64,000 nucleotides of DNA. Source: an uncultured Clostridia bacterium (GTDB lineage Bacteria; Bacillota; Clostridia; Christensenellales; Borkfalkiaceae). How positions within the stretch are numbered: the stretch's first letter is position 1; each line of letters begins with the position of its first letter. The notes below the pieces were generated by a model. The model made no database searches. It was given only the letters and a program-made list of their open reading frames with translations, and was not told where the DNA came from. Of the stretch, positions 7,564 through 23,504 are shown in pieces. The DNA lies in contig CANQBG010000004.1 of assembly GCA_947588985.1 (NCBI GenBank), forward strand, positions 1,667-65,666, given 5' to 3'. The position numbers and the translations under genes are program-made.

Positions 7564-7583
7564 TTTCGCGTCTCCTGATATTT

Positions 7584-8219
7584 TTACTTATCGGTGGTTT
7601 TGAAGAGCTCTTCTATATTTATTGTAATATTTTTTGCTTGAATTTTTCCCGTATTGTTAAAAGATCCCTTGCCGGTATTATTGATATCACCAGAGCCTTC
7701 ATAGTACTTCCTTATAACCTCCGTGTTTCCGGCGCTTATATTTGCTTCGTTGAGTTTATCATCGCAATATTCATAGATAAAGAAAATCAAGCCGAAGGAA
7801 CAATCGCAAACGCCTATAACATTACACCATACCGCCGGAATATACTCAAGTGCACTTAAAATTCCCAAAGCAAGCACCGCCCCCGTTACGACGGCGAGAA
7901 TAACGATTACCCAAACGGCCCTCTTTTTTTTGCTCGCCCGCATTGAACCGAGCGCTTCATCTTTGACTTGTTTCCGCACGTCTTCCAATTGCTTCTTCAG
8001 TTCAGCATGCAGACTCTCCAAATAGGAATCTGCATTTTCTATTCTTGATTCCCGATACAGATAATTATCTATGAGGCCAAACGCCTTTTCGGCCTTTTTT
8101 AACCTATTTTCAGGCAAACAATCGATAAGTTCGCAACTTTCATCAATCAAAAATTTACCTAATTCGTCCACTTTTGGCTTCAACTCGCCAAGTTTTTTCG
8201 TCATTTCTGTTTTTATCAT
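7584..8219 (-). CDS. small membrane protein (helical N-domain, TM hairpin, C-terminal NTGK motif)
   Basis: 211 aa with an AAGGAG RBS. Two hydrophobic helices (AVWVIVILAVVTGAVLALGILSAL, VIGVCDCSFGLIFFIYEY). I recognise no family. Confidence 0.65.
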   Translation of the reverse strand: MIKTEMTKKLGELKPKVDELGKFLIDESCELIDCLPENRLKKAEKAFGLIDNYLYRESRIENADSYLESLHAELKKQLEDVRKQVKDEALGSMRASKKKRAVWVIVILAVVTGAVLALGILSALEYIPAVWCNVIGVCDCSFGLIFFIYEYCDDKLNEANISAGNTEVIRKYYEGSGDINNTGKGSFNNTGKIQAKNITINIEELFKTTDK

Positions 8220-8270: not shown

Positions 8271-9782
8271 TCATTCATGCTTCAAATAGTTGATCGCTTT
8301 TTCAGTAAGACTTCTGCCGCGGCCGGTGACGATAATAAATCCAATCCTAATAAGATACGGTTCGTATTCGGAGAGGTACTTCTTGGGGTCCAATCCAATA
8401 CGGGCAGCAAGCGTATCGGCGCCGATCGCACCGCTCATATCCTCTGCGATTGCGTTCAGGATCTCCAAATCCTTCTTTTCAAGGCCGATCTCATTGATGC
8501 CCTTTTCTTCAAAATACCGCTTCACGACGTCGAGATCGATGCTCGTTGAAACGCGCTGGCCCTTATCGTCGTAGAGTGCCGTATCCAACCCGTCCACAAA
8601 AGAATTGACATAGCGAATAGACCCGCGGCTACGGGGAATACAAGCGTCTATTGCTTCGTCGGTAATGGTAAGGCCCTTCGATGCTACTTTGTTCTTATAA
8701 ATGCGTTTCAGCTCATCGGGCGTATAGTCCACCATCTGGAACTTCAATCTGAGGCATCTGTCTTTTATGGTATTGAGGACCTTATCATCGTCGGTGGTTG
8801 CCGCGATAAAGGTGAAGTTGTCGATCGGAATGCGTTTCACCACGCCGTTTATGTCGGGCGGCGAGACATACACGCGACTGTTGAGCAACGTTAAAAGGCT
8901 CGATTGCAGCTCGTCCGTCAACATATGTATTTCGTCAAAGGCGATCACGACGGGTTCGTTCTCCCTTGCGACCTTCATCAAGAAATTCTGCAAGGCCTTC
9001 AGGGATTGCTGGCTGTTGCGATATTGCGAACAGTCCATCCACTCATACCGAACGCCGAGCGCCTTTGCGATAAGTTCCATGAGCGTGGATTTCCCAAGCC
9101 CGGGATTGCCGAAAAGCAGGATGTTATCGAGATACTTCCTTCCCTGCGCTTTGGCAATGGCGATTTCTTTTAACAAAGGTTTGACGATATGCTGCTGACC
9201 GATAAATCCCTCCAATGTATCCGGAGAGAACAACGGCTCATCTTTTCCTCCGCCGTCAACTTCTTCTCCCTCCGAAGCGGGCACAACGGGTGCGACGGGG
9301 GCATCAACTTTCGGCTCGTCGTCCTGCCCCTTTATGATCGGCTCCACGGGGATAAGCGGCTCCGCGGGTTCGGAAATAATGGGCGAAGGCTTGACGTCGG
9401 GCTCTTGCGGTCCTACAATGCCGTCTATATTCACGCCGCCGCTTGGAATCGACGGTCCTTGAGGGGGCAAAGCGCGTCCGCCCCCGCCCAAGATATCCCC
9501 GAAGGAAGGGATATCCGTGTCTGCAATCAGCCCGAAGAACTTTTGGACACGCCTGTCCTGCAGGCCGTTTTTGCGGATGATTTCTATGTAACTTCCGAAA
9601 ACATCCTGCCAATGGGATAGCTTTGCCTTGATAACGATGGGATCGCCGTTGTTGAGCGAATATTGCCCGGCAAACAGCTTGTACAGCTCTAAGAGCCCTT
9701 GCAACGTGGCCTCTTGATCGTTTGCCCGCGCGGCATGCAATGCCGCTCTGTACTTCTCACGAAATAAATCTGCAAATGTCAT
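8271..9782 (-). CDS. RuvB-like AAA+ ATPase with N-terminal MIT-like helical domain and Pro-rich linker
   Basis: FIGQQHIVKPL, Walker A GNPGLGKST, Walker B VVIAFDEIHML, and FTFIAATTDD...IKDRC. The C-terminal winged helix YEPYLIRIGFIIVTGRGRSLTEKAINYL closely matches the RuvB C-terminus (EPYLIQxGFxxRTPRGR). The first ~175 aa are extra relative to RuvB. Confidence 0.8.
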   Translation of the reverse strand: MTFADLFREKYRAALHAARANDQEATLQGLLELYKLFAGQYSLNNGDPIVIKAKLSHWQDVFGSYIEIIRKNGLQDRRVQKFFGLIADTDIPSFGDILGGGGRALPPQGPSIPSGGVNIDGIVGPQEPDVKPSPIISEPAEPLIPVEPIIKGQDDEPKVDAPVAPVVPASEGEEVDGGGKDEPLFSPDTLEGFIGQQHIVKPLLKEIAIAKAQGRKYLDNILLFGNPGLGKSTLMELIAKALGVRYEWMDCSQYRNSQQSLKALQNFLMKVARENEPVVIAFDEIHMLTDELQSSLLTLLNSRVYVSPPDINGVVKRIPIDNFTFIAATTDDDKVLNTIKDRCLRLKFQMVDYTPDELKRIYKNKVASKGLTITDEAIDACIPRSRGSIRYVNSFVDGLDTALYDDKGQRVSTSIDLDVVKRYFEEKGINEIGLEKKDLEILNAIAEDMSGAIGADTLAARIGLDPKKYLSEYEPYLIRIGFIIVTGRGRSLTEKAINYLKHE

Positions 9783-9808: not shown

Positions 9809-12406
9809 TTAAGATTTTTCTTTATATCCCCAAACCACGGGCCGGCCCGAGTTCCAATCGTTGTCCCATCCCTTCGGCTGTTCTTTTGCTTCACAATAAA
9901 TCGTCAAGTTGCTGCAACCATCGAACGCCCAACTCCCAATTGAAGTCACGCTGTCGGGAATGGTAATGGAAGTCAACCCGCTGCAACCATCGAACGCCCA
10001 ACTCCCAATCGAGGTCACGCCGTCGGGAATGGTAATGGAAGTCAATCCACTACAACCGCTGAACGCATTCCAGCTAATCGAAGTCACGCTGTTAGGGATG
10101 GTAATGGAAGTCAATCCGCCACAACCATAGAGCGCATAACTTTCAATCGAGGTCACGCCGAGAGGAATCTTGATATTCTTACAACCCAAAATCAAGGCAT
10201 TCGAATCCCTTTCAATGATACAATTTCCTTCACTACGATAGACAGCATTCCCCTCCGCTACTTCAATATGTTCGAGTCCAATACATCCGCGAAACGCATA
10301 ATTCCCAATCGATGTCACGCCGTCGGGAATGGTAATGGAAGTCAATCCACTACAATCCTCGAACGCATAACTTCCAATCGATGTCACACTGTCCGGAATG
10401 GTAATGGAGGGCAACCCGCTGCAATCCTGGAACGCATCATTCCCAATCGATGTCACACTGTCCGGAATGGTAATTGAGGTCAAAGCACTACAATTATAGA
10501 ACGCAGAATTCCCAATTGAGGTGCCTCCTGTGATGATGACTTCTTTCAGCGATGCCGGAACAAATCTATAGTTAGAGGAATTATACTCTGCGCCGAAAAT
10601 GTAGCCGAAATGCGTATTTTCGGAACCCTCGTTCGAAGCGCCCACAAACGGAATCGTGATCCTCACAAGCGAACTACAATCCTCGAACACACCGCCTCCA
10701 ATCGAGGTCACGCTATCGGGAATAAATACCGATTGTAGGCGTAATGAATCAACGTCTTTTCCCCGACCGACGGCTGTAACAGGCTCCCCGCGGTATTCAG
10801 AAGGAATCTCCAAGTATTCCGTCATTTTGTTGCAAATAACGTAAGTATATGTTCCGTCCGCATTTTCCGTGTAATAATCCAACTTTACGAAATTCGGGAA
10901 GGTGCTCACCCCCCCTGTCATGATTGCATAGACAAAAAATAAGCTACCCGAGCAAACAAGGAGAAAACGCGGTATGCATTTTCCTTTATGCTTTATAAGC
11001 CCCCATATTATGAGCCCTAAATACGCAACAAGTGCAATAACAAATCCTAAAATTATCCACCACTTCCAATCGCCCACCGCTTGATAGACAAAAATCCATT
11101 CTGATAAAAAAATTCCGACATCAACTGAGGCCGCGCCTTGCCAATCGACGCCAAACCCTTCGAAATTTGGGTTTTTACTAACAAAGGATAGCACTATCCA
11201 CAATGCGGCTAACCCCAAAACAGCCAAGCAATTTAGCCCGTAAATGATCGTGAACAACCAACCCGTATAATCATCAAACGACTTAACAGGAAGATAAAAA
11301 TCCAAAATCATAACCGCAATGGAGAGGGCAATCGGAAGAATCAGTACAGTATATATTCCGATTTGTTGTAAAACCGGAATGGCACGTTTAAGACGTTCAC
11401 GGCGTTTTTCTTTCCTTTTTTGCCTATGTAGTTTTTTGTCATCGCTTTCCGCGACGGAAATTTCTATGGCTCTTAAGCGCTTTTCCTTCTCCTCGCTCAA
11501 ATATTCGTCGTATTGAGTTTTATATTCTCTGTAATCATCATCTATTAGAGTACCGCTTTGTCCCCTGTATCTCTCAATCGCTTCAATATATTTTTTGATT
11601 TCTGACCCGCGAAATTTCGTGAAATTTTTTGAGGCAATTCGCAAAAGTCCGACATAACCGTTTGCATCCTTCGGGTTGGAATCAAGCGCCTTGTTGAAAA
11701 TTTGCTTGGCCTTTCGCAAGGCGTTCTTTTTCCGAGGATGCGCCGGAGCGCCGCACAATCTTATTGCTTCTTTGATCTCTTTTTCGTATTCTTCTTCGGG
11801 AGTGATAAGACTTTTGGCTTCAGCAATGGAAATGCCGTAGGTACTATGAAATTTCTTCTTTTGTACCCAGTTGCAAATTCCGGCAACGGCGGCAACTACA
11901 AGAGTAACGATCTCCGCTCCACCTGTACAATAAAAGCCGATTCCATCGTAATCCATCCCAAAATACATCGCGACGGGACTAAGCAAAAGTATAAATATCG
12001 CGGATATGATTGCCGTCCACTTTGAAATGGTTTCTCCGTCGATTGCCTTTTGGGCGGCGTCTCCATTCCGCTTCAAACACTCCCTGATCTCCCGCAAATG
12101 CTCCATCTCGCGATCATGCCATGTTTGGACCTCGGCGCATATCGCGGCAAACCTGTTGTCTACTGTTCTTTCTTTGCCATCTTTGTTTTCTCCTCTCAGC
12201 GTATCGAATCTGAGAAACGACTCTAATTCGGTTTTATCCGTCAGACCTTCCAAACTGCTTAATCCTTCAAGCGTACAATCGTTAAATCCGCGAAGGAGCG
12301 CCTCTATACGATCGTAATATTTTTCGTATATTTGAGGATAGTCGGACTTCCACCTACTATCCTTAAGCATCTGCAAAAATTTTCCTGCCTTAATTGCGTT
12401 CTTCAT
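9809..12406 (-). CDS. polytopic membrane protein with C-terminal BspA-type leucine-rich repeat domain
   Basis: 865 aa. A helical N-domain is followed by a TM hairpin (aa ~130-180), a basic coiled coil and about 6 further TM helices (aa ~345-520). About 13 LRR units follow (ITIPDSVTSIGSWAFDGCSGLTS), ending in LTIYCEAKEQP...PVVWG. Confidence 0.8.
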   Translation of the reverse strand: MKNAIKAGKFLQMLKDSRWKSDYPQIYEKYYDRIEALLRGFNDCTLEGLSSLEGLTDKTELESFLRFDTLRGENKDGKERTVDNRFAAICAEVQTWHDREMEHLREIRECLKRNGDAAQKAIDGETISKWTAIISAIFILLLSPVAMYFGMDYDGIGFYCTGGAEIVTLVVAAVAGICNWVQKKKFHSTYGISIAEAKSLITPEEEYEKEIKEAIRLCGAPAHPRKKNALRKAKQIFNKALDSNPKDANGYVGLLRIASKNFTKFRGSEIKKYIEAIERYRGQSGTLIDDDYREYKTQYDEYLSEEKEKRLRAIEISVAESDDKKLHRQKRKEKRRERLKRAIPVLQQIGIYTVLILPIALSIAVMILDFYLPVKSFDDYTGWLFTIIYGLNCLAVLGLAALWIVLSFVSKNPNFEGFGVDWQGAASVDVGIFLSEWIFVYQAVGDWKWWIILGFVIALVAYLGLIIWGLIKHKGKCIPRFLLVCSGSLFFVYAIMTGGVSTFPNFVKLDYYTENADGTYTYVICNKMTEYLEIPSEYRGEPVTAVGRGKDVDSLRLQSVFIPDSVTSIGGGVFEDCSSLVRITIPFVGASNEGSENTHFGYIFGAEYNSSNYRFVPASLKEVIITGGTSIGNSAFYNCSALTSITIPDSVTSIGNDAFQDCSGLPSITIPDSVTSIGSYAFEDCSGLTSITIPDGVTSIGNYAFRGCIGLEHIEVAEGNAVYRSEGNCIIERDSNALILGCKNIKIPLGVTSIESYALYGCGGLTSITIPNSVTSISWNAFSGCSGLTSITIPDGVTSIGSWAFDGCSGLTSITIPDSVTSIGSWAFDGCSNLTIYCEAKEQPKGWDNDWNSGRPVVWGYKEKS

Positions 12407-12426: not shown

Positions 12427-13449
12427 TCACAATTCGATATCATTGCTTTCGCACCACTTCTTGAGCAGTTCCTCAATCGCATCCATCGGCGTGGCGTTGG
12501 CATAGCCTTCGGCAGAAACGTTGTTCACGGCGACGGTCTTTGATTTGTTGATACCGATACACTCGCCCAGCCTGTTGAGGACGGGCCCGCCCGAATCGCC
12601 CGGATTGGACGGCGCGGTATAGACCAAATTCCCCTCGTCGTTTTGTGTGAAGCGAACAACGCCCGCAAAGGGAGCAAGGCCCATCCCGAAGGCATTGCCG
12701 ATTACAAGGCAATCCGCGCCTTGCAACACCTGCGAATAATCGGGTACGCGCTTTATAACTGTAAATTCACCCACCTCGGCGGGATCAAAGCTGCAAAGCG
12801 CAACATCCGCTTTCTTGTCGGAGAACAAAATATTTATCTTATAGCTCTTTTTCTCCCCCAAAAAGGACATTTTTGCTTTCGGATAATAGCATTGCGTTTT
12901 CTCATTGAACACAACATGGTCGTTGGTAAGGAGATATCCGTTTTTAGAAATAATGAAGCCCGTCCCTGTCGCGCCGACGCGAGAATCGGAAACAGAGATT
13001 GCAACAACGGATCGCTTGCTTTTTTCAAACAGCTCGGCACACCAACCTTGCGTTTTGGCGGATTCGTCTATCAGTCCCGCGATATCAATTTCATCGCTCG
13101 GCGGGGAAGGTTGCGCAGGTTGATCGGCGCTCGACGGTTTTTTGGGTTCCTGCTCAGCAGGCTTTTTCACCACTTTCGGCAAATTTTGTTCTTGTTTTGT
13201 CGGAAGCCCGAAACATTTCAAAACAAAATCGGTGATGCCCTTTGTCCGAAGCTCTTTTGATACCGCGATCCATTTATCTAAAAAAGCCTGCGTCTTTGCT
13301 TTGATGAGAATGGTTTTCGCCTGATTATATGTTTCAACCGCATAATTCAAAATGGCGAGAACATATGCTCTCGCCGCTTTGGGGTTATTTTGTTTGATAA
13401 GCTCCCTTGCGTTCGAGTAGTAGGTAGCTATCTTATCCCGATCGTTCAC
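12427..13449 (-). CDS. trypsin-like serine protease (S1/HtrA-like core, no PDZ) with N-terminal MIT-like helical domain
   Basis: GTG start directly after the upstream stop, with AAGGAG 8 nt upstream. Catalytic triad context: LTNDHVV, ADVALC, GDSGGPV. The N-terminal ~85 aa helical domain is followed by a Pro/Lys-rich linker. Confidence 0.8.
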   Translation of the reverse strand: MNDRDKIATYYSNARELIKQNNPKAARAYVLAILNYAVETYNQAKTILIKAKTQAFLDKWIAVSKELRTKGITDFVLKCFGLPTKQEQNLPKVVKKPAEQEPKKPSSADQPAQPSPPSDEIDIAGLIDESAKTQGWCAELFEKSKRSVVAISVSDSRVGATGTGFIISKNGYLLTNDHVVFNEKTQCYYPKAKMSFLGEKKSYKINILFSDKKADVALCSFDPAEVGEFTVIKRVPDYSQVLQGADCLVIGNAFGMGLAPFAGVVRFTQNDEGNLVYTAPSNPGDSGGPVLNRLGECIGINKSKTVAVNNVSAEGYANATPMDAIEELLKKWCESNDIEL

Positions 13450-14643
13450 TCATTTGCTCCTTTTAAGTCTCAAAAGTAACTCCTCGTAGGATATTCCCAT
13501 ATCATACGCCTTAAATCTCAACAACATCTCGTTCGTTACGCCGTTGATATAGTATTTAATTACCTTGTCGCAATCTGCAAGAGTTATCATCTCGCCTTGC
13601 TCGCGCCCCTTCTTCATAATGTTAAGAATTTCGCGCCTTAAAGGTTCATTCGCGATTTGCTTCATGATCGCCCTGATATCGGCACCCGCATATCCTTCTA
13701 ACCTTTGCGCGAGATATTCGACAGTGACGTCCGGCGCATGGGGCAAGTGAGCGAGGTCAAGTGCAACAAATTTTTCTCGGGCATCCGCATCGGGAAGCGG
13801 AACGTAAATTTGCGTTTCGAACCTTCCGCCCCGTTTGAGTGCGGGATCGAGTTTCCACGGCAAATTCGTTGCCGCTACAATGATCCGAAGTTGATTGGGC
13901 TTTTGGGTTTTCATAAAGCCGTCCATGCAAGTCAACATGGTGGTCAGTATGGATTTTGTATGCCTCGAATCATCGCTGCTCCGATCTGAACAGATACTAT
14001 CGATTTCGTCGAGAAAGATGATGCATCTGTCAAGCTCTGCCGCCTGCGCAAAGATGTCCCGCATATTCTTTTCGGCAACACCTACGACGCTTGCCAAAAC
14101 TTCGCTTGTTTGGACAACGGCTATCTTGCAGTTCAATGCCCCTGCAAGACACTTTACGATGTGCGTCTTCCCTGTCCCGGGAGGCCCGTATAACAGGATT
14201 TGCGTTCCGAGTTGATTCCCTCTGAACTTATGATACACAGTCTGGAATTCGGGCCTCAAGGGAGCGACGACGTCCACCATAAAGGCATCCTTGACTTCTT
14301 GGACGCCGATGATGTTCGTAAAATTAAGTTTCGGCACTTCGTCCGAAAACCACTTCCTCTCGGAATAATAGGGGTCAACGCCACCTTCCCCGTCACTCGA
14401 ACAAGCAACGGAGAGAGGCGGCTGCTTTGCGTAGCGAACAAGGTGACTGATTACGACGGAACATTGTTTGCGATAGGCATCTTTTGTCGTCGTGCTTACG
14501 TTTGGATTGGAACATTGCTCCATGGCCATATGAAGCATTTCGGCGCCAACCTCACAAATGGCATCTATGTCTCCTGCAGCCACTGCTTCATTAAAGGTGC
14601 CTATCTTACTATTGAAGACACTAATCATGCTCGCTTCTGCCAT
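13450..14643 (-). CDS. Vps4/CdvC-like meiotic-clade AAA+ ATPase with N-terminal helical (MIT-like) domain
   Basis: Walker A LLYGPPGTGKT and Walker B IIFLDEIDS. AATNLPWKLDPALKRGGRFETQIYVPLPD matches my recollection of Vps4 (ATNIPWQLDxAxRRRFExRIYIPLPD). The lid reads LEGYAGADIRAI. Single AAA cassette, 397 aa. Confidence 0.75.
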   Translation of the reverse strand: MAEASMISVFNSKIGTFNEAVAAGDIDAICEVGAEMLHMAMEQCSNPNVSTTTKDAYRKQCSVVISHLVRYAKQPPLSVACSSDGEGGVDPYYSERKWFSDEVPKLNFTNIIGVQEVKDAFMVDVVAPLRPEFQTVYHKFRGNQLGTQILLYGPPGTGKTHIVKCLAGALNCKIAVVQTSEVLASVVGVAEKNMRDIFAQAAELDRCIIFLDEIDSICSDRSSDDSRHTKSILTTMLTCMDGFMKTQKPNQLRIIVAATNLPWKLDPALKRGGRFETQIYVPLPDADAREKFVALDLAHLPHAPDVTVEYLAQRLEGYAGADIRAIMKQIANEPLRREILNIMKKGREQGEMITLADCDKVIKYYINGVTNEMLLRFKAYDMGISYEELLLRLKRSK

Positions 14644-14657
14644 AATTGTATGTTACC

Positions 14658-15281
14658 TTAGTCCTTTTTTCCGTTCTCTTCGGCAACGATCCCCGCATAG
14701 TCGATGTCGCCGGTTGCGGTTGCGTCTGCGCCTTCAGGCTTAGAAACGGCTTCGGGAGTAATTTTCCCCTTCACGCGCTCTATCATGGCCGCATACTCAG
14801 CTTTGAATTGATCGGATTGCTCAATCTCATCCGCCGTAGTTCCATCCAAACGGCTCGAAATGCTCTCAACCGGCTTGGGATCGAGAATTTCATTCAGCTT
14901 TGCAAGTTCCGCTTCGGATTTGTTGATGTCTTTGAAAATTGCCGTGATGCTCTTCCCAAGTTTGGTAAAATCGGGCGATTCTGCCAACAGGCCTTTGCAA
15001 CCCGCAATTGCCGCAGGGAGTTTCCCGAGTTCCGAAATCGCCAGTGCCGTGTATGCCCCGAGTTCAATGTTGCTCTTGAGCGTTTTGAGTTGTTCGATAA
15101 GCGCATATACGCGAATCTTCTGCTTGATCAGTTGTTTGGCTCTCGCATCGTCGCTACGCAATGCGGCTTCGTCGATATAGACATCATACTTTGCTCCAAA
15201 CTTTTGAAGATTGCGAACGGACTTATCGAGTGCATCCAATGCCGCAATGATTTTTTGGTCATTTGTTTGTTTCTTAGCCAT
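14658..15281 (-). CDS. Snf7/ESCRT-III-like helical protein (candidate)
   Basis: 207 aa with a basic N-terminus (MAKKQTNDQK) and predicted long helices (ARAKQLIKQKIRVYALIEQLKTLKSNIELGAYTA; ISELGKLPAAIAGCKGLL; FTKLGKSITAIFKDINKSEAELAKLNEIL). The tail is acidic. Size, charge polarity and helix pattern resemble CdvB/Snf7. It lies immediately upstream of the Vps4-like gene. Assignment is by eye only. Confidence 0.5.
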   Translation of the reverse strand: MAKKQTNDQKIIAALDALDKSVRNLQKFGAKYDVYIDEAALRSDDARAKQLIKQKIRVYALIEQLKTLKSNIELGAYTALAISELGKLPAAIAGCKGLLAESPDFTKLGKSITAIFKDINKSEAELAKLNEILDPKPVESISSRLDGTTADEIEQSDQFKAEYAAMIERVKGKITPEAVSKPEGADATATGDIDYAGIVAEENGKKD

Positions 15282-15332: not shown

Positions 15333-15809
15333 CTACTTCCTGTCTGGAATTGCCGCTTCCGCGGCACGAATCAATTCTTCGATTGCCTCACTTTCCATCT
15401 CGTCGCAAAGCTCGCGCACCAGTTCGATCCCCATTTTTTTTAATTCGGGCAAATGCCGCATGTCCTTTGCCGCCATCATTAAAGCGCCTTCATGGATGGC
15501 TTTCCAAACCTTTTTATAATCGCCCGAACGGATAGCCATTTGTGCTGCACCGATTGCCGCATTGAAAATGTCGATTATGGCGGAAAATTTTTCGATGTTC
15601 TGCCGGGCCGTCATATCATCTGCTGCTTCTCTTGCGGCCTTTAGTCGGAGACTATACAAATTGACGATATCTTCCAAGAGATAAAATTCAACAAAAGCCT
15701 CCCTGTCGATGAGCGAAACCCGTATCTGCTGATATATCGGACTTTTTTTCAACATGCAATTTGCCTGTACAACACGTGCTCTATGCGAGCGAATTATGCT
15801 TTTCGCCAT
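15333..15809 (-). CDS. hypothetical helical protein, paralogue B (conserved C-terminal tail IRAAEAAIPDRK)
   Basis: ORF 15333..15887 trimmed to Met27 (MAKSIIRSH). Clearly paralogous to the upstream gene (IDREAFVEFYLLEDIV, NIEKFSAII.IFNAAIGAA, SGDYKKVWKAIHEGALM). Confidence 0.7.
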   Translation of the reverse strand: MAKSIIRSHRARVVQANCMLKKSPIYQQIRVSLIDREAFVEFYLLEDIVNLYSLRLKAAREAADDMTARQNIEKFSAIIDIFNAAIGAAQMAIRSGDYKKVWKAIHEGALMMAAKDMRHLPELKKMGIELVRELCDEMESEAIEELIRAAEAAIPDRK

Positions 15810-15825
15810 AAAATCCGTCTCGGTT

Positions 15826-16440
15826 TTAGGTATTCGGATCCATTCTGCTGGTCTTCTTCCTGTCGGGAATCGCCGCTTCCGCGGCACGGATCACTTCTTC
15901 GATTTCATCCATGGTAGGAGGAAGATCTTTTACCCTGCGCACGTTTTCCTCATGCGCATCCAAATCGTCCAAATCTTCATCCAATTCATGACTAATGTCT
16001 ACCGCAGTCATCATGTCTTCGGACAGCTCACGCAACAGCTCTATTGCTAAGCTCTTTAATTCGGGCAAATTTTTGACACTACTCGCCGCCGCCATCAAAG
16101 CGCCTTCATGGATGGCTTTCCAAACCTTTTTATAATCGCCCGAATTGATAGCTGATCTCGCTGCCCCGATTGCCGCGTTGAAAATGTTGATGATGGCAGA
16201 AAATTTTTCGATATTCTGCTTCCTGCCTTTTTCATCGGCGCGGCCCTGAGGGACATATGCCTTTTCTTCTCCCAGGCGGATATTGTATAACTTAACAATA
16301 TCCTCCAATAAGTAAAACTCGACAAAAGCCTCTCGGTCGATGATTGAAATACGCTCTCTACTAAATTTCGGATGTTTTTTCAGCGTTTCATTTGCCTGCT
16401 TCACCCGAGCCATGTGTGAACGGATTGTTTTTTCTCCCAT
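15826..16440 (-). CDS. hypothetical helical protein, paralogue A (acidic C-region plus tail IRAAEAAIPDRK)
   Basis: 204 aa with a GGAGG RBS. First gene downstream of a consensus promoter. Basic N-terminus and an acidic C-terminal third (ELDEDLDDLDAHEE). Confidence 0.7.
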   Translation of the reverse strand: MGEKTIRSHMARVKQANETLKKHPKFSRERISIIDREAFVEFYLLEDIVKLYNIRLGEEKAYVPQGRADEKGRKQNIEKFSAIINIFNAAIGAARSAINSGDYKKVWKAIHEGALMAAASSVKNLPELKSLAIELLRELSEDMMTAVDISHELDEDLDDLDAHEENVRRVKDLPPTMDEIEEVIRAAEAAIPDRKKTSRMDPNT

Positions 16441-16543: not shown

Positions 16544-16572
16544 TCTGTTTATCATTATAAACCGTTTCCTTA
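16544..16572 (-). promoter_or_regulatory. consensus sigma-A promoter of the ESCRT-like operon
   Basis: On the minus strand: TTGACA, a 17-nt spacer (TAATTAAGGAAACGGTT), then TATAAT, about 100 nt upstream of the ATG at 16440. Confidence 0.6.
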
Positions 16573-16690
16573 ATTATGTCAACTGTTATCCGCTATATTT
16601 CCCTCAAAAAGCCGAAAAAATCTTCTCTTTCGTCCATTTCCGCATCCCTCCTTGTTTGATGTCATTATAATCCATCCTGATTGCAAGTTA

Positions 16691-16936
16691 TCAGTTCTTT
16701 TTCCGCCCTTCCAGCAAGTCGTAATATTCCTCGAATATATCGAGTGCCGCAAGCTCATCCGTTTCGATTTTGAGATATGGCGGCCCTTGGGGCGGTTCTC
16801 CCACATAAAAGACCATCGCCTCATCATCGGCAACCCCCTCCATCGGAGTAATGGGTTTCAAGACGCAATACAGTTTCTCGTCGTGTGGGATGACCGCCAC
16901 CTGTTCAAAAAGAATTTCGTGGCCATGTTCATCCAC
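16691..16936 (-). CDS. DUF1292 family protein (N-terminus apparently frameshifted; see finding)
   Basis: VDEHGHEILFEQVAVIPHDEKLYCVLKPI...YLKIETDELAALDIFEEYYDLL fits the DUF1292 pattern (compare B. subtilis YrzB). The ORF starts at GTG. A much better RBS+ATG lies at 16992 in another frame. Confidence 0.65.
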   Translation of the reverse strand: MDEHGHEILFEQVAVIPHDEKLYCVLKPITPMEGVADDEAMVFYVGEPPQGPPYLKIETDELAALDIFEEYYDLLEGRKKN

Positions 16937-17004
16937 AAGACGGATCGGATCACGGTGTCTGCATCAAGCAACACATCGATAATGGTTTCCATAGCGTAAC
17001 CTCC

Positions 17005-19491
17005 TTATCCGTCAAGCGGTCCATATTTCTTGATGAACTGCTCTTTCGTTATGAGTATACGGCGTCCCTTCGACCTATCGAGCGGAGAGATGTATCCCAT
17101 GCTTTCCATCCAGTCGATGATTTTCCCCGCATGGTTGTATCCAATACAGCATTTCCGCTGCACGAGGGAAATTGACGCCTCACCTTCTTGGATCACGATT
17201 GCCAGAGCCTTAATATAGAGCGGGCTTTCCGGGGACGCATCCGTGTCCTTGTCGGAAGCATTCGAGGCAGTTTTCTTGGTGGCACGCCGGATATATTGCT
17301 TGGCCCCCTCATTAAACTTTGCCTCATGCGTCTTCTTTGTTGCCGCAACGGCTGCGGCCAATGCCTCATACGGAAGATAGGCGCCCTGTATTCGTTCGCA
17401 CAGCGAAGTGAATTCGCTCCACATGAGCAGATCGCCAAACCCAAGCAGTTTTTCTGCTCCGCTTTCATTGATGAGTATACGCGAATCGTTTTCCCGGATC
17501 ACCCGAAACGCAATGCGCGTGGGGAAATTTGATTTCAACGCACCCGTAACGACATCTGGGGTCGGTCGTTGGGTAGCAAGAACGAGGTGGATTCCTGCCG
17601 CACGTGCTTTTTGCGCCAACCGTAGCACGCCCTCCCCAATGGCGCGATTTACTGCGACAAAATCCGCATATTCGTCGATGATGATGACGATGCGCGGAAG
17701 ATTTTCCTCCCCTTCTTTACGCGCCGCATGATAATCTTCGATATTCCTTATCGGATCTCCCGCAGCAATCTTGCCTTGAAAGATTTGATACCGGCGTTCC
17801 ATTTCATGGATTGCCCACGTCAGCATGCGAGCCATGGGCTCCGCGTCTGTGATGATATGCCCCGTGAGAAGGTGCGGCATCTCATCATAGTGCATAAACT
17901 CCGATTGTTTAGAGTCGCACAATATGAGCCGGACATCGTCGGGAGAGTATTTTGTTACCAAGTTGTAGATCATCGTATGGAGGAACGTGGATTTCCCGGA
18001 ACCGATTGTGCCTCCGATCAAAATGTTTTTGAGGCGTACAATGTCTCCGTAAACGGAATTCCCGTCCACATCTTTACCGATGGCGAAGTAGAGCGACTCC
18101 GGCTTGCTCCACCGTTCGTTGGCATCGTGGATCAATTCCTCCGCCGGAACCGTCTCGCGCTCGGACCGAACGCGCGGCACCTCGATGCAGATCCGTCTGC
18201 TGCCCGCGGGATCGGTATAGACCCGCACCCCTTCCCTTTGCCCAAGGCGCATGGCAAGCTCGGTGGCTCTTTTGGTTACGGCGGATGGGGAAACCGCGCT
18301 CGGAATCACAAGTGCAAAGCGCATAACCGTCGCCCCCACGGAAACATTGGCGATCCCGGAATCAATGTGGAATCCCGCCAATGTCCCGGTGATGATGTCT
18401 GCGGTTCTCGTCACTTCATCGGACAAGATCCTCTTGTCGAAAAGTTCGTCATCTACGTCCTCCTCATCGAAGGCCTCTTTTTCTTCCTTTTCGACGCCTA
18501 CGGCTTGCCCGGATTCTCTTGCGAGGAGGGTATCGCGGATTTTTGCATAATCCGCCTCCGTCATCTTGGCAAACTCCTTCACCGCCCTTGCGTAGACGAC
18601 AATGTCGTCAATGTTTTCGCCGTCCTTCACTCTCTGATAGCGTTCCCGCATGCGCAGGATCAGCTGCCCGCGATCCATCTCCGGATCGGCGGTCAACAAT
18701 TCCTTCGCGACGCCTAAAATGCTTTCATTCTCTTTGCCGGTATCCACGCACATGGCGACCTCATCCGCGTCGATCGCAACAATACGCTCTATTGCTGCAA
18801 ATAGTTGTAACATATAGGTTACGGTATTCTCGGGAGAGGGAACTTCGATCCAAAGCTCGTCCTCGACAATGCTGATCTGATAGCGATCCGCAATCGAGTG
18901 GATTCGTTCTGAGATTCCCTCCGCGTCAAGCGGCGTGTGCATCTTGAGAAAGCGAAGCGCGATTGCATCGTCCGAAAGATAGACATCGTCATCCCGGATC
19001 ACAATCTTGAACCGGATCGTCCTTCCGCGGATATTTAGCCCTTCGGGGGCGAGATAATGTTCGCCGTTTATTTGGATAATCGAAACGCCTTCGTCCAACT
19101 CATGGGTGATGGCATAAACTTCCGGCGGAGTATCGTCGCCCGATTCCTTGTCGTCCGATTCGTCGTCATCCGATTCCTCGTCGTCCTCCAAAGTTTCCTT
19201 CTCACATTCCTCACGCATTCTCCGAAGGATCTCCCGCCTGCGCGCCTCTAAAGACGCGCGTCTTGATCTCAGATCATACAACTCGTCGAATCTCCCGGCT
19301 TCCCTTTTTCTGTCTGTCTGTAAGACGAAATATTGAATGCCCGAATCCAAACGGAGCACCCCGTCCTCCACACATTTTTCGATTAGTTTGGAGATGCTAC
19401 GATAATCGGCAGAAAATCTTTTCTGCAATTCCGGGATCGAAACCTTCTGCTGCGCCTTAATATAATTGAGTATTTCTTGATCGTTTGCCAT
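17005..19491 (-). CDS. FtsK/SpoIIIE-family DNA translocase, soluble (no TM region), with wHTH domains at both ends
   Basis: Trimmed to MANDQEIL (AAGGAG RBS). Walker A GGTIGSGKST, Walker B IVIIIDEYADF, and ATQRPTPDVVTG. The C-terminal gamma-like wHTH reads ISLVQRKCCIGYNHAGKIIDWMESMGYI. An N-terminal wHTH is followed by an acidic stretch. I see no hydrophobic helices. Confidence 0.85.
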   Translation of the reverse strand: MANDQEILNYIKAQQKVSIPELQKRFSADYRSISKLIEKCVEDGVLRLDSGIQYFVLQTDRKREAGRFDELYDLRSRRASLEARRREILRRMREECEKETLEDDEESDDDESDDKESGDDTPPEVYAITHELDEGVSIIQINGEHYLAPEGLNIRGRTIRFKIVIRDDDVYLSDDAIALRFLKMHTPLDAEGISERIHSIADRYQISIVEDELWIEVPSPENTVTYMLQLFAAIERIVAIDADEVAMCVDTGKENESILGVAKELLTADPEMDRGQLILRMRERYQRVKDGENIDDIVVYARAVKEFAKMTEADYAKIRDTLLARESGQAVGVEKEEKEAFDEEDVDDELFDKRILSDEVTRTADIITGTLAGFHIDSGIANVSVGATVMRFALVIPSAVSPSAVTKRATELAMRLGQREGVRVYTDPAGSRRICIEVPRVRSERETVPAEELIHDANERWSKPESLYFAIGKDVDGNSVYGDIVRLKNILIGGTIGSGKSTFLHTMIYNLVTKYSPDDVRLILCDSKQSEFMHYDEMPHLLTGHIITDAEPMARMLTWAIHEMERRYQIFQGKIAAGDPIRNIEDYHAARKEGEENLPRIVIIIDEYADFVAVNRAIGEGVLRLAQKARAAGIHLVLATQRPTPDVVTGALKSNFPTRIAFRVIRENDSRILINESGAEKLLGFGDLLMWSEFTSLCERIQGAYLPYEALAAAVAATKKTHEAKFNEGAKQYIRRATKKTASNASDKDTDASPESPLYIKALAIVIQEGEASISLVQRKCCIGYNHAGKIIDWMESMGYISPLDRSKGRRILITKEQFIKKYGPLDG

Positions 19492-19501
19492 ATTTTTCTC
19501 C

Positions 19502-23409: not shown

Positions 23410-23504
23410 GTTTTTCTCCTTACGAATTAGTTTCGGTTGAAAATCTACAACTCGGTGCGGCTTGGGATCCATCGTTCCCATATAATCCAATGTTCTTTGA
23501 TATA

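What the first reader, a model, noticed from the sequence alone, without database searches (positions are those of the whole stretch)
13450..15281. Adjacent Snf7/CdvB-like and Vps4/CdvC-like genes in a bacterium
The 397-aa ATPase has a single AAA cassette carrying hallmarks of the meiotic clade (Vps4, katanin, spastin).
- ATNLPWKLDPALKRGGRFETQIYVPLPD compares with Vps4 ATNIPWQLD...RRFE.RIYIPLPD, recalled from memory.
- It also has an N-terminal ~80-aa helical domain where Vps4 has its MIT domain.

The gene 14 nt upstream encodes a 207-aa all-helical protein with a basic N-terminus and an acidic C-terminus. Its helix pattern can be laid over CdvB/Snf7 helices alpha1-alpha5.

Bacterial ESCRT-III superfamily members described so far are mainly PspA/Vipp1, which do not pair with Vps4-like ATPases. 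A bona fide Snf7-Vps4 pair in a Clostridia-like genome would therefore be notable.
Basis: partly seen in the sequence, partly recalled or inferred. Interest (0 to 1): 0.85.

Follow-up and report, generated by a model that had tools for sequence, protein, structure and literature searches.

The report
Bacterial ESCRT-III-like protein with Vps4-style ATPase
A mobile island in a gut Clostridia genome carries a conserved operon in which a Snf7/ESCRT-III-like filament protein sits next to an ATPase built like Vps4. Reviews say this pairing is confined to archaea and eukaryotes, but the ATPase is a separate deep lineage, not a true Vps4 orthologue.

Summary
Positions 14658-15281(-) encode a 207-aa helical protein. 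Fourteen nt downstream, 13450-14643(-) encodes a 397-aa single-cassette AAA ATPase.

**The 207-aa protein** is a divergent ESCRT-III superfamily member, nearer to Snf7/CHMP than to PspA:
- Pfam Snf7 hits in 11 of 72 family members.
- Colinear profile hits to CHMP2A.
- An AF2 model with the alpha1-alpha5 plus C-terminal-helix layout.
- 44 of the top 50 Foldseek hits are ESCRT-III proteins.

**The ATPase** has Vps4-like architecture:
- An N-terminal three-helix bundle whose best structural matches are MIT domains (TM 0.84 to Sulfolobus Vps4 MIT).
- One active classical AAA cassette.
- A Vps4/CdvC-type C-terminal helix.

It is not a Vps4/CdvC orthologue:
- It has no sequence-level MIT hit.
- It keeps RGGR where the meiotic clade has RR.
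- Its pore loop has no aromatic residue.
- Its phylogenetic position is unresolved.

**Context.** Both genes belong to an operon conserved in 27 loci from Clostridia and Mollicutes. The order is unknown helical protein(s), Snf7-like, AAA, trypsin-like protease, variable membrane/LRR proteins, RuvB-like ATPase. The operon often lies beside integrases or VirD4/FtsK genes. The protease and the RuvB-like enzyme share an N-terminal adaptor domain.

**Verdict.** This is a new bacterial variant of an ESCRT-III/AAA system. Its biological role is unknown.

The parts
16554..16582 (-). Promoter-like site (TTGACA-17-TATAAT, 12/12 consensus), about 110 nt upstream of the first cassette gene
   Evidence: It is the only perfect match in 20 kb. 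This is a consensus match, not proof of function.
15826..16440 (-). H204: first cassette gene. A 204-aa helical protein of unknown family with a conserved C-terminal helix EIEEVIRAAEAAIPDRK.
   Evidence: Present directly upstream of the Snf7-like gene in nearly all of the 24 genome loci. No Pfam, PDB or ESCRT-III profile match. Alignment.
15333..15809 (-). G: shorter paralogue of H204, 158 aa from MAKSII. The mechanical ORF starts earlier, at 15887.
   Evidence: 67% identical to H204. Tandem H copies also occur in L001 and L007.
14658..15281 (-). F207: Snf7/ESCRT-III-like protein, with alpha1-alpha2 hairpin, alpha3-5, a flexible linker and a C-terminal helix
   Evidence: Pfam Snf7 E 1e-3 for the window protein; 11/72 members hit, best 3.4e-7. 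Profile against PDB: CHMP2A E 0.007, colinear. hhalign against verified Snf7/CHMP sequences E 1.5e-4 over 108 columns, against 0.13 for PspA. AF2 pLDDT 76. 44/50 Foldseek hits are ESCRT-III superfamily.
14661..14720 (-). C-terminal tail of F207 (TGDIDYAGIVAEENGKKD): an acidic amphipathic helix after a P/A/S/T linker. Candidate MIM-like docking peptide.
   Evidence: Invariant in close relatives. The pattern D-h-D-x-h-x-x-h-h-D-E-E-K/N-K-K is kept across the whole family. Predicted helix 195-204. Binding was not tested.
14419..14643 (-). N-terminal three-helix domain of E397 (residues 1-75), MIT-like by fold
   Evidence: AF2 pLDDT above 90 over residues 10-70. The best TM-scores in PDB are MIT domains: 2v6y/2w2u TMt 0.84 at rmsd 2.1 A, and 9bl8 at 0.73. 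13 of the top 50 hits are MIT domains, but all E-values are above 0.5. There is no sequence-level MIT signal.
13450..14418 (-). Linker, classical AAA cassette and C-terminal helix of E397. Walker A GPPGTGKT; Walker B IIFLDEID; sensor-1 ATN; Arg fingers RGGR; pore loop ASVVGV; C-terminal GVTNEMLLRFKAYDMG.
12427..13449 (-). D340: N-terminal ~85-aa helical adaptor, Pro-rich linker and trypsin/HtrA-like serine protease (His, Asp and GDSGGP intact). The GTG start directly follows the E397 stop.
   Evidence: Pfam Trypsin_2 1.7e-17. NCBIfam DegP/HtrA-like 1e-22. Junction sequence. Present in 26 of 27 loci.
9809..12406 (-). C865: variable module. Coiled-coil N-region, about 6 TM segments and a BspA-type LRR ectodomain.
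   Evidence: Pfam LRR_5 1.5e-68. Crude hydropathy. Position and content vary between loci.
8271..9782 (-). B503: the same N-terminal adaptor as D340, a Pro-rich linker, a RuvB-like AAA+ domain and a RuvB C-terminal winged helix
   Evidence: Pfam RuvB_N and RuvB_C. NCBIfam RuvB 2.9e-45, below cutoff. N-domains of the D and B families: hhalign 91%, E 1.2e-6, gapless alignment.
4708..8219 (-). A211 (7584-8219; coiled-coil plus TM hairpin) and g3 (4708-7563; 951 aa, BspA-type LRR): a second variable module at the operon end
16691..23490 (-). Upstream operon of the same low-GC island: ClpP-like (22810-23490), unknown 539 aa (21198-22817), VirD4-like coupling protein (19502-21442), soluble FtsK/SpoIIIE-like (17005-19512) and DUF1292 (16691-16936). 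It is linked to the cassette in some loci only.
   Evidence: Co-occurrence in L010, partial in L003, L013 and L016.

Best explanation
The two genes are the core of a mobile-element-borne operon that works like an ESCRT-III/Vps4 module, without being an orthologue of the archaeal or eukaryotic one.

**Shown**
- F207 has the ESCRT-III subunit architecture: basic N-terminus, alpha1-alpha2 hairpin, alpha3-5, a flexible linker and a conserved C-terminal amphipathic helix.
- E397 is an intact single-ring-type classical AAA ATPase. It has an MIT-like three-helix N-domain on a flexible linker and a Vps4/CdvC-type C-terminal helix.
- The two genes are always adjacent and co-oriented.

**Inferred**
- F207, possibly together with the unknown helical proteins H and G, polymerises on the inner face of the membrane. 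The sites would be defined by the variable coiled-coil/TM and LRR membrane proteins encoded in the same operon.
- The N-domain of E397 docks on the C-terminal helix of polymerised F207. ATP hydrolysis then extracts or remodels subunits, giving filament turnover and membrane remodelling (scission, repair or budding).
- The trypsin-like protease D340 and the RuvB-like motor B503 share a second N-terminal adaptor domain on Pro-rich tethers. They would be recruited to the same scaffold, as MIT-domain enzymes are recruited to eukaryotic ESCRT-III.

**Biological outcome: not determined.** The operon has a constant enzymatic core, diversifying surface-exposed modules and carriage on integrative or conjugative islands. 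I therefore rank a conflict or defence role at the envelope first. Membrane-linked DNA export or transfer comes second.
For: **F207 is ESCRT-III-like**
- Searches give the Snf7, CHMP2A, AF2 and Foldseek evidence.
- One search shows family-wide conservation of the C-terminal helix. It also shows alpha0-like N-termini (MGVFSNIK, MSLLDIFKKK) in distant members.

**E397**
- All catalytic motifs are intact.
- MIT-like fold.
- The E-family HMM aligns through the C-terminal helix only with CdvC, katanin and spastin.
- The C-terminal profile's top PDB hit is CdvC 4lcb (E 0.21), and 5 of its 9 hits are archaeal Vps4.
- ATNxPW and FExxIYxPLPD are shared with Vps4, CdvC and katanin.

**Coupling**
- The order F then E then D is kept in 27 loci, including L025 and L028 at 22-25% F identity.
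- The gaps are 14 nt and 0 nt, with a Shine-Dalgarno sequence inside the upstream gene.
- A single consensus promoter lies upstream of H.

**Shared adaptor and mobile context**
- D and B share an adaptor domain.
- Low-GC island, VirD4/FtsK genes and an integrase next to the cassette in 6 of 24 loci.
Against: - The window protein's Snf7 score (19.2 bits) is below Pfam's gathering score (27.3). All ESCRT-III and MIT structural hits have weak Foldseek E-values (best 7e-3 and 0.5), as is usual for small helical folds.
- No sequence method detects MIT in E397, while the CdvC-versus-eukaryote MIT control gives 92.6%.
- E397 lacks the meiotic-clade RR deletion, and its pore loop 1 is S-V-V-G without the aromatic residue that Vps4 uses to grip ESCRT-III.
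- The tree is unresolved: 1% support with Vps4/CdvC and 15% with the meiotic clade.
- HMM discrimination gives only -1.6 to +11.9 bits towards the meiotic side.
- The ATPase is translationally coupled to a protease, which fits an ATP-dependent proteolytic pair equally well.
- The H/G proteins and the D/B adaptor domain have unknown folds.
- No polymerisation, binding or membrane data exist.
Confidence: 0.55

Rival explanations
1. E397 and D340 form a two-component ATP-dependent protease or defence pair, with an AAA unfoldase or switch plus a serine protease, analogous to IetA-IetS. F207 and H/G would be regulators, sensors or substrates, much as PspA restrains the AAA+ protein PspF, rather than a membrane-remodelling polymer serviced by the ATPase.
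For: - The stop of E397 is immediately followed by the start of D340, with a Shine-Dalgarno sequence inside E397.
- E and D co-occur in all loci where the downstream sequence is available.
- E397 matches PADLOC IetA (118 bits) and NCBIfam IteA (113 bits) over the AAA core.
- D340 matches protease modules of defence candidates.
- The operon has a variable module and sits on mobile elements, as defence islands do.
Against: - The IetA/IteA scores are lower than those for CDC48 (175), FtsH (162) and CdvC (144), and are far below the NCBIfam IteA cutoff of 510.
- No PADLOC system matches.
- The non-aromatic pore loop argues against a threading unfoldase as much as it argues against Vps4.
- This reading does not explain why the protease shares its N-domain with a RuvB-like motor.
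- It does not explain why the ATPase carries an MIT-like domain and the neighbouring ESCRT-III-like protein a conserved C-terminal docking-type helix.
Confidence: 0.22
2. The pair is a horizontally acquired, fast-evolving true orthologue of archaeal CdvB/CdvC (ESCRT-III/Vps4).
For: - The architecture, gene adjacency and C-terminal helix match.
- The best MIT match is Sulfolobus Vps4.
- The NCBIfam CdvC model aligns over residues 93-380, the longest span of any model.
- The best PDB profile hits of F207 include CHMP2A and CdvB.
Against: - The RGGR segment keeps the ancestral two residues that all sampled meiotic-clade members lack (Vps4, CdvC, katanin, spastin, Msp1, ATAD1). Regaining them is unlikely.
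- Support for grouping with Vps4/CdvC is 1%.
- The CdvC equivalog score is 144 against a cutoff of 650.
- The absolute score against the meiotic HMM (about 195 bits) is far below that of any held-out meiotic subfamily (245-331 bits).
- There is no CdvA or ESCRT-II-like winged-helix partner.
Confidence: 0.08
3. The ESCRT-III and MIT resemblances are artefacts of helical, charged sequence. The cassette is an unrelated system whose helical proteins merely look like coiled coils.
For: - All decisive scores are sub-threshold or weak.
- Helical hairpins and three-helix bundles are common folds.
- The sister protein H204 has no detectable relative.
Against: - Independent methods converge on the same family with colinear alignments of 95-134 residues.
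- 44 of the 50 top fold hits are ESCRT-III, and 13 of 50 are MIT, although each is a tiny fraction of PDB.
- The highest TM-scores for the N-domain are all MIT domains.
- N- and C-terminal family features match ESCRT-III conventions.
- The same hhalign set-up gives E 0.037 for PspA against the eukaryotic ESCRT-III alignment, a weaker score for a relationship that is accepted.
Confidence: 0.1

Closest known systems
Archaeal Cdv system: CdvB (ESCRT-III) with CdvC (Vps4)
   Same: - An adjacent ESCRT-III-like gene and a single-cassette AAA ATPase.
- A three-helix N-domain superposes on the Sulfolobus Vps4 MIT domain (TM 0.84).
- The ATPase has a C-terminal helix and no beta-domain.
- The ESCRT-III protein carries a conserved C-terminal docking-type segment.
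   Different: - The ATPase is not in the CdvC clade: RGGR instead of RR, an S-V-V-G pore loop, and 144 bits against a 650-bit cutoff.
- MIT is not detectable by sequence.
- There is no CdvA and no winged-helix domain on the ESCRT-III protein.
- There are extra obligatory partners: a protease, a RuvB-like motor, the H protein and variable LRR membrane proteins.
- It is carried on mobile islands in bacteria that divide with FtsZ (general knowledge for Bacillota).
Eukaryotic ESCRT-III with its MIT-domain enzymes (Vps4, spastin, katanin, calpain-7, AMSH and others; PMC9477494)
   Same: The design principle is shared. Several different enzymes (an AAA ATPase, a protease and another motor) each carry a small N-terminal helical adaptor on a flexible linker. 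They are encoded together with a filament protein that bears a C-terminal peptide helix.
   Different: - The adaptor of the protease and the RuvB-like enzyme is a distinct domain. It has no demonstrated MIT relationship (hhalign E 0.003-0.02 only).
- Recruitment is inferred, not shown.
- There is no ESCRT-0/I/II and no ubiquitin link.
Bacterial PspA/Vipp1 (ESCRT-III superfamily), with PspF in Proteobacteria
   Same: [quoted passage not shown] A membrane-stress or repair role is plausible.
   Different: - F207 matches Snf7/CHMP rather than PspA (Pfam 11 members against 1; hhalign 1.5e-4 against 0.13).
- The partner is a classical AAA with an MIT-like domain, not a sigma-54 enhancer-binding protein.
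- There is no PspB, PspC or Toastrack context.
Bacterial MIT+Vps4-like ATPases and Snf7/PspA-AAA+ neighbourhoods noted by Ravi, Aravind and co-workers (PMC11237479)
   Same: That paper records that Vps4-like AAA+ genes and Snf7-clade genes occur sporadically in bacteria. It suggests ATP-dependent membrane remodelling.
   Different: - In the reported cases (Opitutus ACB74714.1, M. smegmatis CKH37208.1) snf7 is absent or replaced by a TPR+6TM gene.
- Alternatively, PspA/Snf7 sits with a double AAA and ABC transporters.
- The present cassette was not found in that paper's text or supplement.
IetAS (IetA AAA ATPase with IetS protease) anti-phage system
   Same: An AAA ATPase gene is tightly coupled to a serine protease gene on mobile islands. 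E397 gives partial IetA matches.
   Different: - The scores are far below family cutoffs.
- The protease is trypsin/HtrA-like. IetS is, from my recollection, subtilase-like.
- IetAS has no ESCRT-III-like, RuvB-like or LRR components.

Membership tests
ESCRT-III, Snf7 family (Pfam PF03357) - F207 | Sequence match to the Snf7 profile at the curated threshold | tested here: inconclusive
   - Window protein: 19.2 bits, E 1e-3, against a gathering score of 27.3.
- 11 of 72 diverse family members hit at E<=0.01, best 3.4e-7.
- Many close relatives carry a precomputed PF03357 hit.
- hhalign against verified Snf7/CHMP4B/CHMP2A/CHMP1B: E 1.5e-4, 108 colinear columns.
ESCRT-III, Snf7 family - F207 | Fold: long alpha1-alpha2/3 hairpin followed by alpha4 and alpha5 | tested here: met
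   - AF2 helices at 7-41, 45-96, 106-133 and 157-174, with hairpin pLDDT above 90.
- Foldseek: CHMP2A/CHMP3 at probability 1.0; also CHMP1B, Asgard ESCRT-IIIB, Snf7, CdvB2 and IST1.
- 44 of the top 50 hits are ESCRT-III superfamily.
ESCRT-III, Snf7 family - F207 | Basic or amphipathic N-terminus, and a C-terminal MIT-interacting-type helix after a flexible linker | tested here: met
   This is a sequence pattern only. The basic N-terminus, the alpha0-like motifs in distant members and the conserved acidic amphipathic C-terminal helix are shown. Binding to the ATPase could not be tested with these tools.
ESCRT-III, Snf7 family - F207 | Polymerisation on membranes | not testable with these tools
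   Needs in vitro assembly, EM or imaging.
PspA/Vipp1 (PF04012) - F207 | Closer to the PspA_IM30 profile than to Snf7 | tested here: not met
   - 1 of 72 members hits PspA_IM30, against 11 for Snf7.
- No PspA or Vipp1 chain appears at E<=1 in the PDB profile search, although many are deposited.
- hhalign against E. coli PspA: E 0.13.
- Foldseek probabilities of 0.06-0.6 for PspA/Vipp1, against up to 1.0 for CHMPs.
Vps4/CdvC - E397 | N-terminal MIT domain, sequence level (PF04212) | tested here: not met
   No Pfam MIT hit. hhalign of the N-domain against CdvC and eukaryotic MIT alignments gives E 0.09-0.6, while the control pair gives 92.6%.
Vps4/CdvC - E397 | N-terminal MIT domain, fold level | tested here: met
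   - AF2 three-helix bundle, pLDDT 81.6.
- The highest TM-scores in PDB are MIT domains: 2v6y/2w2u at 0.84 and rmsd 2.1 A over 76 columns, 9bl8 at 0.73, and 1yxr/2k3w at 0.70-0.73.
- 13 of the top 50 hits are MIT domains.
- Foldseek E-values are individually non-significant (above 0.5).
Vps4/CdvC - E397 | Single classical AAA cassette with intact Walker A/B, sensor-1 and arginine fingers | tested here: met
   GPPGTGKT, IIFLDEID, ATN and R-GG-R. Pfam AAA 3.9e-36.
Vps4/CdvC and the wider meiotic clade - E397 | Second-region-of-homology signature: adjacent arginines (RR), that is, loss of the two residues present as RPGR in Cdc48/PAN/FtsH | tested here: not met
   In the alignment with verified references, E has KRGGRFE. 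All 14 meiotic references have the two-residue gap.
Vps4/CdvC - E397 | Aromatic pore loop 1 (K-W/Y-x-G) | tested here: not met
   A-S-V-V-G-V. V-V or I-V in the aligned members; columns nearly invariant (at least 90%) across 59 relatives.
Vps4/CdvC - E397 | C-terminal helix after the lid (Vps4_C region) | tested here: inconclusive
   - GVTNEMLLRFKAYDMG aligns with Vps4, CdvC, katanin and spastin, and also with p97-D2.
- The HMM alignment runs to the C-terminus only with CdvC, katanin and spastin.
- The PDB profile's top hit is CdvC 4lcb residues 308-361, at E 0.21.
- Pfam Vps4_C hits 3 of 25 members, best E 0.014.
Vps4/CdvC - E397 | Phylogenetic placement inside the clade, or passing the family model cutoff | tested here: not met
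   - NCBIfam CdvC: 143.9 bits against a cutoff of 650. CDC48 scores 175 and FtsH 162.
- NJ bootstrap support is 1% with Vps4/CdvC and 15% with the meiotic clade. Deep nodes are unresolved, and the meiotic clade itself gets only 20%.
- HMM discrimination gives -1.6 to +11.9 bits. Held-out meiotic subfamilies give +12 to +105, and the other classical families -33 to -86.
Vps4/CdvC - E397 | Genomic linkage to an ESCRT-III gene | tested here: met
   Immediately downstream of the Snf7-like gene in 27 of 27 loci.
   - FtsH model: 162 bits against a cutoff of 600, with no TM segment and no M41 protease domain.
- The E-family HMM gives no hit to SpoVK or CbbX.
- They separate at 100% bootstrap.
IetAS / IteA anti-phage ATPase - E397 | Match to the family model at its cutoff, with the cognate partner | tested here: not met
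   NCBIfam IteA: 112.7 bits against a cutoff of 510. PADLOC IetA: 118 bits over the AAA core only, and no other system component was found.

The most novel reading that the evidence does not exclude
The cassette is a genuine bacterial ESCRT-type membrane-scission machine carried by integrative or conjugative elements of gut Bacillota and Mollicutes.

- Its parts would be a Snf7-like filament, an MIT-AAA disassemblase, and a protease and a RuvB-like DNA motor recruited to the filament through a second adaptor domain.
- It would be aimed at membrane sites marked by diversifying LRR surface proteins.
- Possible uses are pinching off DNA-loaded vesicles or membrane bridges during element transfer, or abscising phage-attacked membrane.
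- Its ATPase would represent a lineage that split from the Cdc48/Vps4 stem before the meiotic-clade RR deletion. The ESCRT-III-plus-AAA partnership would then not be an archaeal invention confined to archaea and eukaryotes.
Probability: 0.35. Interest if true: 0.9.

Novelty: new variant of a known kind. Interest (0 to 1): 0.78.

Why it matters
[quoted passage not shown] They also state that a Vps4-like ATPase appears absent in bacteria, so that PspA/Vipp1 dynamics must be regulated otherwise (PMC7619361).

A conserved bacterial operon pairing a Snf7-type protein with an MIT-like AAA ATPase would be an exception that can be tested directly with a handful of small soluble proteins.
- It offers a minimal, possibly pre-meiotic-clade model for how AAA ATPases service ESCRT-III polymers.
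- The non-aromatic pore loop asks whether threading is needed at all.
- It shows the 'adaptor domain plus enzyme' recruitment logic of eukaryotic ESCRT-III in a prokaryotic mobile element.
- It may reveal a new envelope-level function, in defence or in DNA transfer, in abundant but poorly studied gut Clostridia and wall-less Mollicutes.

Tried and rejected
- **MIT at sequence level.** I tested the N-domains of E397 and of D340/B503 with Pfam, PDB profiles and hhalign against CdvC and eukaryotic MIT alignments. All were negative or insignificant.
- **Structure of the D/B adaptor.** The second and last prediction went to the E397 N-domain, so the fold of the D/B adaptor remains untested.
- **H204/G family.** There is no Pfam, NCBIfam, PADLOC, PHROG or PDB relative, and no profile similarity to F207 or to ESCRT-III.
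- **Phylogeny.** NJ with 300 bootstraps on 277 columns did not resolve deep AAA nodes and did not recover the meiotic clade itself. I therefore used indel and motif characters and a leave-subfamily-out HMM discrimination test instead. No ML program was available.
- **Reference sequences.** The two CdvC/Vps4 sequences (S. acidocaldarius, S. solfataricus) and B. subtilis FtsH failed exact look-up. Only CdvC was replaced, by database sequences.
- **Plasmid, phage and IMG/VR searches with F207.** No hits. The cassette is not a typical plasmid or phage gene.
- **Known defence system.** Rejected as a member of any PADLOC system.
- **Alignment A2 for locus retrieval.** Too divergent for pattern-based retrieval. 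A1 was used instead.
- **Literature.** No description of this cassette was found. The library lacks most subscription-journal papers, so absence is not proof.

Full report
**1. What is at the coordinates**

All genes of interest are on the minus strand.
- F207 (14658-15281) encodes 207 aa.
- E397 (13450-14643) encodes 397 aa, 14 nt after the F207 stop codon.
- The E397 stop TGA is followed at once by the GTG start of a 340-aa protease gene, and an AAGGAG lies inside the last codons of E397.
- F207 itself has a good Shine-Dalgarno sequence.

Both genes are conserved.
- F207 has 255 relatives at E<=1e-3 among 5.8 billion cluster representatives. A profile finds 94 clusters at 50% identity.
- E397 has more than 100 relatives at 68% identity or higher.

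The window's proteins occur, unnamed, on one 70-kb NCBI contig. The nearest loci are gut MAGs of Clostridia/Christensenellales ('Candidatus Coproplasma') and of Anaeroplasma/Acholeplasmatales.

**2. The 207-aa protein is a divergent Snf7-type ESCRT-III protein**

Sequence evidence:
- The window protein hits Pfam Snf7 below threshold (E 1e-3, 19.2 bits against 27.3; residues 8-73 on profile positions 3-68).
- Many close relatives carry a precomputed PF03357 hit.
- Among 72 diverse family members, 11 hit Snf7 (best 3.4e-7) and only one hits PspA_IM30.
- A profile of those 72 sequences against all PDB sequences gives CHMP2A as the best full-length, colinear hit (E 0.007; 9-142 on 9-141), and also CdvB (E 0.11). 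No PspA or Vipp1 chain appears at E<=1.
- hhalign against an alignment of yeast Snf7 and human CHMP4B, CHMP2A and CHMP1B (each verified by exact look-up) gives E 1.5e-4 over 108 colinear columns. E. coli PspA gives 0.13. In the same set-up the accepted PspA-to-ESCRT-III relationship scores only 0.037.

Structural evidence:
- The AF2 model (pLDDT 76; above 90 in the hairpin) has helices at 7-41, 45-96, 106-133, 157-174 and 195-204. This is the alpha1, alpha2/3, alpha4, alpha5 and terminal-helix layout.
- In Foldseek against PDB, 44 of the top 50 hits are ESCRT-III superfamily structures. CHMP2A/CHMP3 reach probability 1.0, followed by CHMP1B, Asgard ESCRT-IIIB, Loki CHMP4-7, Snf7, CdvB2 and IST1. 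PspA and Vipp1 come lower.

Family-wide features:
- A P/A/S/T-rich linker is followed by a terminal acidic amphipathic helix (D-h-D-x-h-x-x-h-h-D-E-E-K/N-K-K).
- Some distant members start with alpha0-like motifs (MGVFSNIK, MSLLDIFKKK).

I rate 'ESCRT-III superfamily, Snf7-side' at about 0.85.

**3. The ATPase: Vps4-like in build, not in descent**

*Architecture.*
- The catalytic motifs are intact: Walker A GPPGTGKT, Walker B IIFLDEID, sensor-1 ATN and arginines R-GG-R.
- The first 75 residues fold, with pLDDT above 90, into three helices at 3-23, 26-44 and 51-73.
- Foldseek E-values for so small a bundle are weak (all above 0.5). Even so, the best superpositions are all MIT domains:
  - S. 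solfataricus Vps4-like MIT 2v6y/2w2u: TM 0.84, rmsd 2.1 A over the whole 75-residue target.
  - Yeast Vps4 MIT 9bl8: 0.73.
  - VPS4A: 0.70-0.73.
  - VPS4B: 0.71.
  - 13 of the top 50 hits are MIT domains. The rest are bS20, AcrA hairpins and designed bundles with lower TM-scores.
- No sequence method detects MIT, although the CdvC-to-eukaryote MIT control gives 92.6%.

*C-terminus.*
- The segment GVTNEMLLRFKAYDMG aligns with the C-terminal helix of Vps4, CdvC, katanin and spastin, and also with p97-D2.
- The E-family HMM aligns through this region only with CdvC, katanin and spastin.
- A profile of the last 73 residues has CdvC 4lcb residues 308-361 as its top PDB hit (E 0.21). Five of its nine hits are archaeal Vps4 C-termini.
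- Pfam Vps4_C appears faintly, in 3 of 25 members.

*Clade.*
- PDB and NCBIfam searches rank Cdc48/VAT D2 (142 bits per domain; 175 bits for the CDC48 model), FtsH (162), CdvC (144) and PAN (142). All are far below family cutoffs.
- In the reverse direction, the E-family HMM scores VPS4A 147, katanin 145, Vps4 141, p97-D2 136, CdvC 133, FtsH 131 and PAN 122. SpoVK and CbbX give no hit.
- I built a tree from 25 reference domains. The sequences came from exact look-ups or database searches.
  - The E family is monophyletic (100%).
  - It lies inside the classical AAA group (100% against SpoVK/CbbX).
  - Its deeper position is unresolved: 1% with Vps4/CdvC and 15% with the meiotic clade, which itself gets only 20%.
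- A leave-subfamily-out HMM test separates known groups cleanly. Held-out meiotic subfamilies score +12 to +105 bits, and the other classical families -33 to -86. The E family scores -1.6 to +11.9. Its absolute scores (about 195 bits) are below those of any held-out subfamily.

*Discrete characters*.
- E shares ATNxPW and FExxIYxPLPD with Vps4, CdvC and katanin.
- It keeps RGGRF where all 14 meiotic references have a two-residue deletion (R--RF).
- Its pore loop 1 is A-S-V-V-G, without the aromatic residue (V-V or I-V in the aligned members; nearly invariant across 59 relatives).

*Conclusion.* E397 belongs to an independent deep branch of classical AAA ATPases. It has MIT-like, AAA and C-terminal-helix architecture. 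It is neither a Vps4/CdvC orthologue nor a member of FtsH, SpoVK or IetA.

**4. The genes are part of a larger conserved operon on mobile DNA**

*Gene order.* In 24 genome loci and in two longer metagenome contigs (L025 and L028, with F identity of only 22-25%), the order is as follows:
1. H, in one or two copies.
2. F.
3. E.
4. D, the trypsin/HtrA-like protease.
5. A variable module.
6. B, a RuvB-like AAA+ protein with the RuvB winged helix.

*Shared adaptor.* D and B share an approximately 85-aa N-terminal helical domain (hhalign 91%, E 1.2e-6; gapless alignment), followed by Pro-rich linkers. Three different enzymes in the operon therefore have the plan 'small helical N-domain, flexible tether, catalytic domain'.

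*Variable module*. It lies between D and B, or after B. It consists of:
- small proteins with a coiled-coil and a TM hairpin (A211-like), together with
- large multi-TM BspA-type LRR proteins, or
- in three loci, a 1050-1260-aa P-loop protein without a Pfam hit.

*Unknown partner.* H has no detectable relatives.

*Operon structure.* A perfect TTGACA-17-TATAAT lies about 110 nt upstream of H, and no convincing terminator interrupts the operon.

*Island.* In the window the operon lies in a low-GC island (0.44-0.52 against about 0.6).
- The island also contains a second operon encoding a ClpP-like protease, an unknown 539-aa protein, a VirD4-like coupling protein (CD1115 family), a soluble FtsK/SpoIIIE-like ATPase and DUF1292.
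- That second operon accompanies the cassette in only some loci.
- In six other loci a tyrosine integrase lies directly upstream of H.

*Negative searches.* No close relative of F207 was found in plasmid, phage or IMG/VR collections. No PADLOC system matches.

**5. How it most likely works**

*Shown.* An ESCRT-III-type subunit with a conserved terminal helix is always encoded beside an active AAA ATPase carrying an MIT-like domain. A protease and a DNA-motor-like ATPase in the same operon share another adaptor domain. Membrane proteins with variable ectodomains are encoded alongside them.

*Inferred.*
- F207 (with or without H/G) polymerises at the membrane.
- E397 docks on its tail and uses ATP to remodel or recycle the polymer.
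- D340 and B503 are tethered to the same scaffold.
- The TM/LRR proteins determine where or when assembly occurs.

*Open points.*
- The V-V pore loop raises the question of whether subunit extraction uses classical threading.
- The tight E-D coupling keeps open a rival in which E397 serves the protease.
- The physiological output is unknown. I rank envelope-level conflict or defence first, because of the constant core, the diversifying surface module and island carriage. Membrane-coupled DNA export or transfer comes second, because of the RuvB-like motor and the VirD4/FtsK neighbours. Membrane repair comes third.

**6. Relation to what is known**

- Makarova et al. [quoted passage not shown]
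- A 2025 review says a Vps4-like ATPase appears absent in bacteria.
- The PSP survey by Ravi, Aravind and colleagues records sporadic bacterial MIT-Vps4-like genes in which snf7 is displaced. It also records PspA/Snf7 genes beside double-AAA proteins and transporters, and suggests ATP-dependent remodelling. This cassette does not appear in its text or supplement.
- I found no description of this cassette in four further full-text searches.
- Pfam-based annotation already flags many family members as Snf7, so the domain assignment as such is latent in databases.

I file the finding as a new variant of a known kind of system: an ESCRT-III filament with a dedicated AAA ATPase. It differs from known examples in its bacterial, mobile-element setting, in additional enzyme partners and in an ATPase of separate descent.

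**7. Caveats**

- Every structural and remote-homology score is modest.
- The structural models are predictions.
- The tree method (NJ) is weak.
- The fold of H204 and of the D/B adaptor is unknown.
- No interaction was tested.

Noticed in passing
window 12427-13449 and 8271-9782 (N-terminal ~85 codons of each: 13204-13449 and 9513-9782): The trypsin-like protease and the RuvB-like ATPase share a homologous N-terminal helical domain (hhalign 91%, E 1.2e-6), followed by Pro-rich linkers. It looks like a common recruitment adaptor. There is no significant MIT or other match by sequence, and its fold was not tested.
   Followed up: partly
window 15826-16440 and 15333-15809: Two paralogous helical proteins (H204 and G) head the operon. 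They belong to an orphan family with invariant DREAFVEF..LLEDI and VWKAI.E.ALM motifs and a conserved C-terminal helix EIEEVIRAAEAAIPDRK. No relative was found in any library.
   Followed up: partly
window ~4600-24100: A low-GC island (0.44-0.52) lies in a ~0.6 GC genome. It is flanked by host genes: LuxS and YitT on one side, and a MacB-like ABC/FtsX gene on the other. There is no tRNA in the window and no integrase in this copy. I did not search for att-like repeats.
   Followed up: partly
window 16554-16582 (-) and 23505-23533 (-): A perfect sigma-70 consensus promoter lies upstream of H204, and an 11/12 match lies upstream of the ClpP-like gene. Together they suggest two operons in the island.
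   Followed up: no
window 16691-23490: The upstream operon encodes a ClpP-like protease (which also matches phage prohead protease families), an unknown 539-aa protein, a VirD4-like CD1115-family coupling protein, an FtsK/SpoIIIE-like ATPase without TM segments, and DUF1292. No relaxase or VirB4 was seen among the ORFs I scanned. It is only sometimes linked to the cassette (L010; partly L003, L013, L016).
   Followed up: partly
L001, L002, L005, L006, L021, L022 (gene directly upstream of the H homologue, e.g. L002:8017-8928): A tyrosine recombinase (Phage_integrase plus SAM-like N-domain) sits immediately upstream of the cassette in 6 of 24 genome loci.
   Followed up: partly
L006:15951-19193, L019:8225-12007, L021:10084-13230: In three loci the LRR protein of the variable module is replaced by a 1050-1260-aa protein. 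It carries a P-loop (GISQSGKST) and a DLPGG motif and has no Pfam hit. It may be a large GTPase-like component.
   Followed up: no
window 14076-14093 (E397 residues ~184-189): Pore loop 1 of the ATPase is S-V-V-G instead of K-(W/Y/F)-x-G. It is V-V or I-V in the aligned members and nearly invariant (at least 90%) across 59 relatives. This is unusual for an AAA protein expected to grip a polypeptide.
   Followed up: partly
window 3429-4463 and L028:3316-4158: A YitT/DUF2179 membrane-protein gene lies next to the cassette, both in the window and in the very divergent locus L028. This could be coincidence, a preferred insertion site or a functional link.
   Followed up: no
window 13453-13500 (last ~16 residues of E397): The extreme C-terminus (ISYEELLLRLKRSK) gives short hits to Pfam 'Ubiq-assoc' PF09145 in 15 of 25 family members (best E 4e-4, below the gathering score). 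Its significance is unclear.
   Followed up: no
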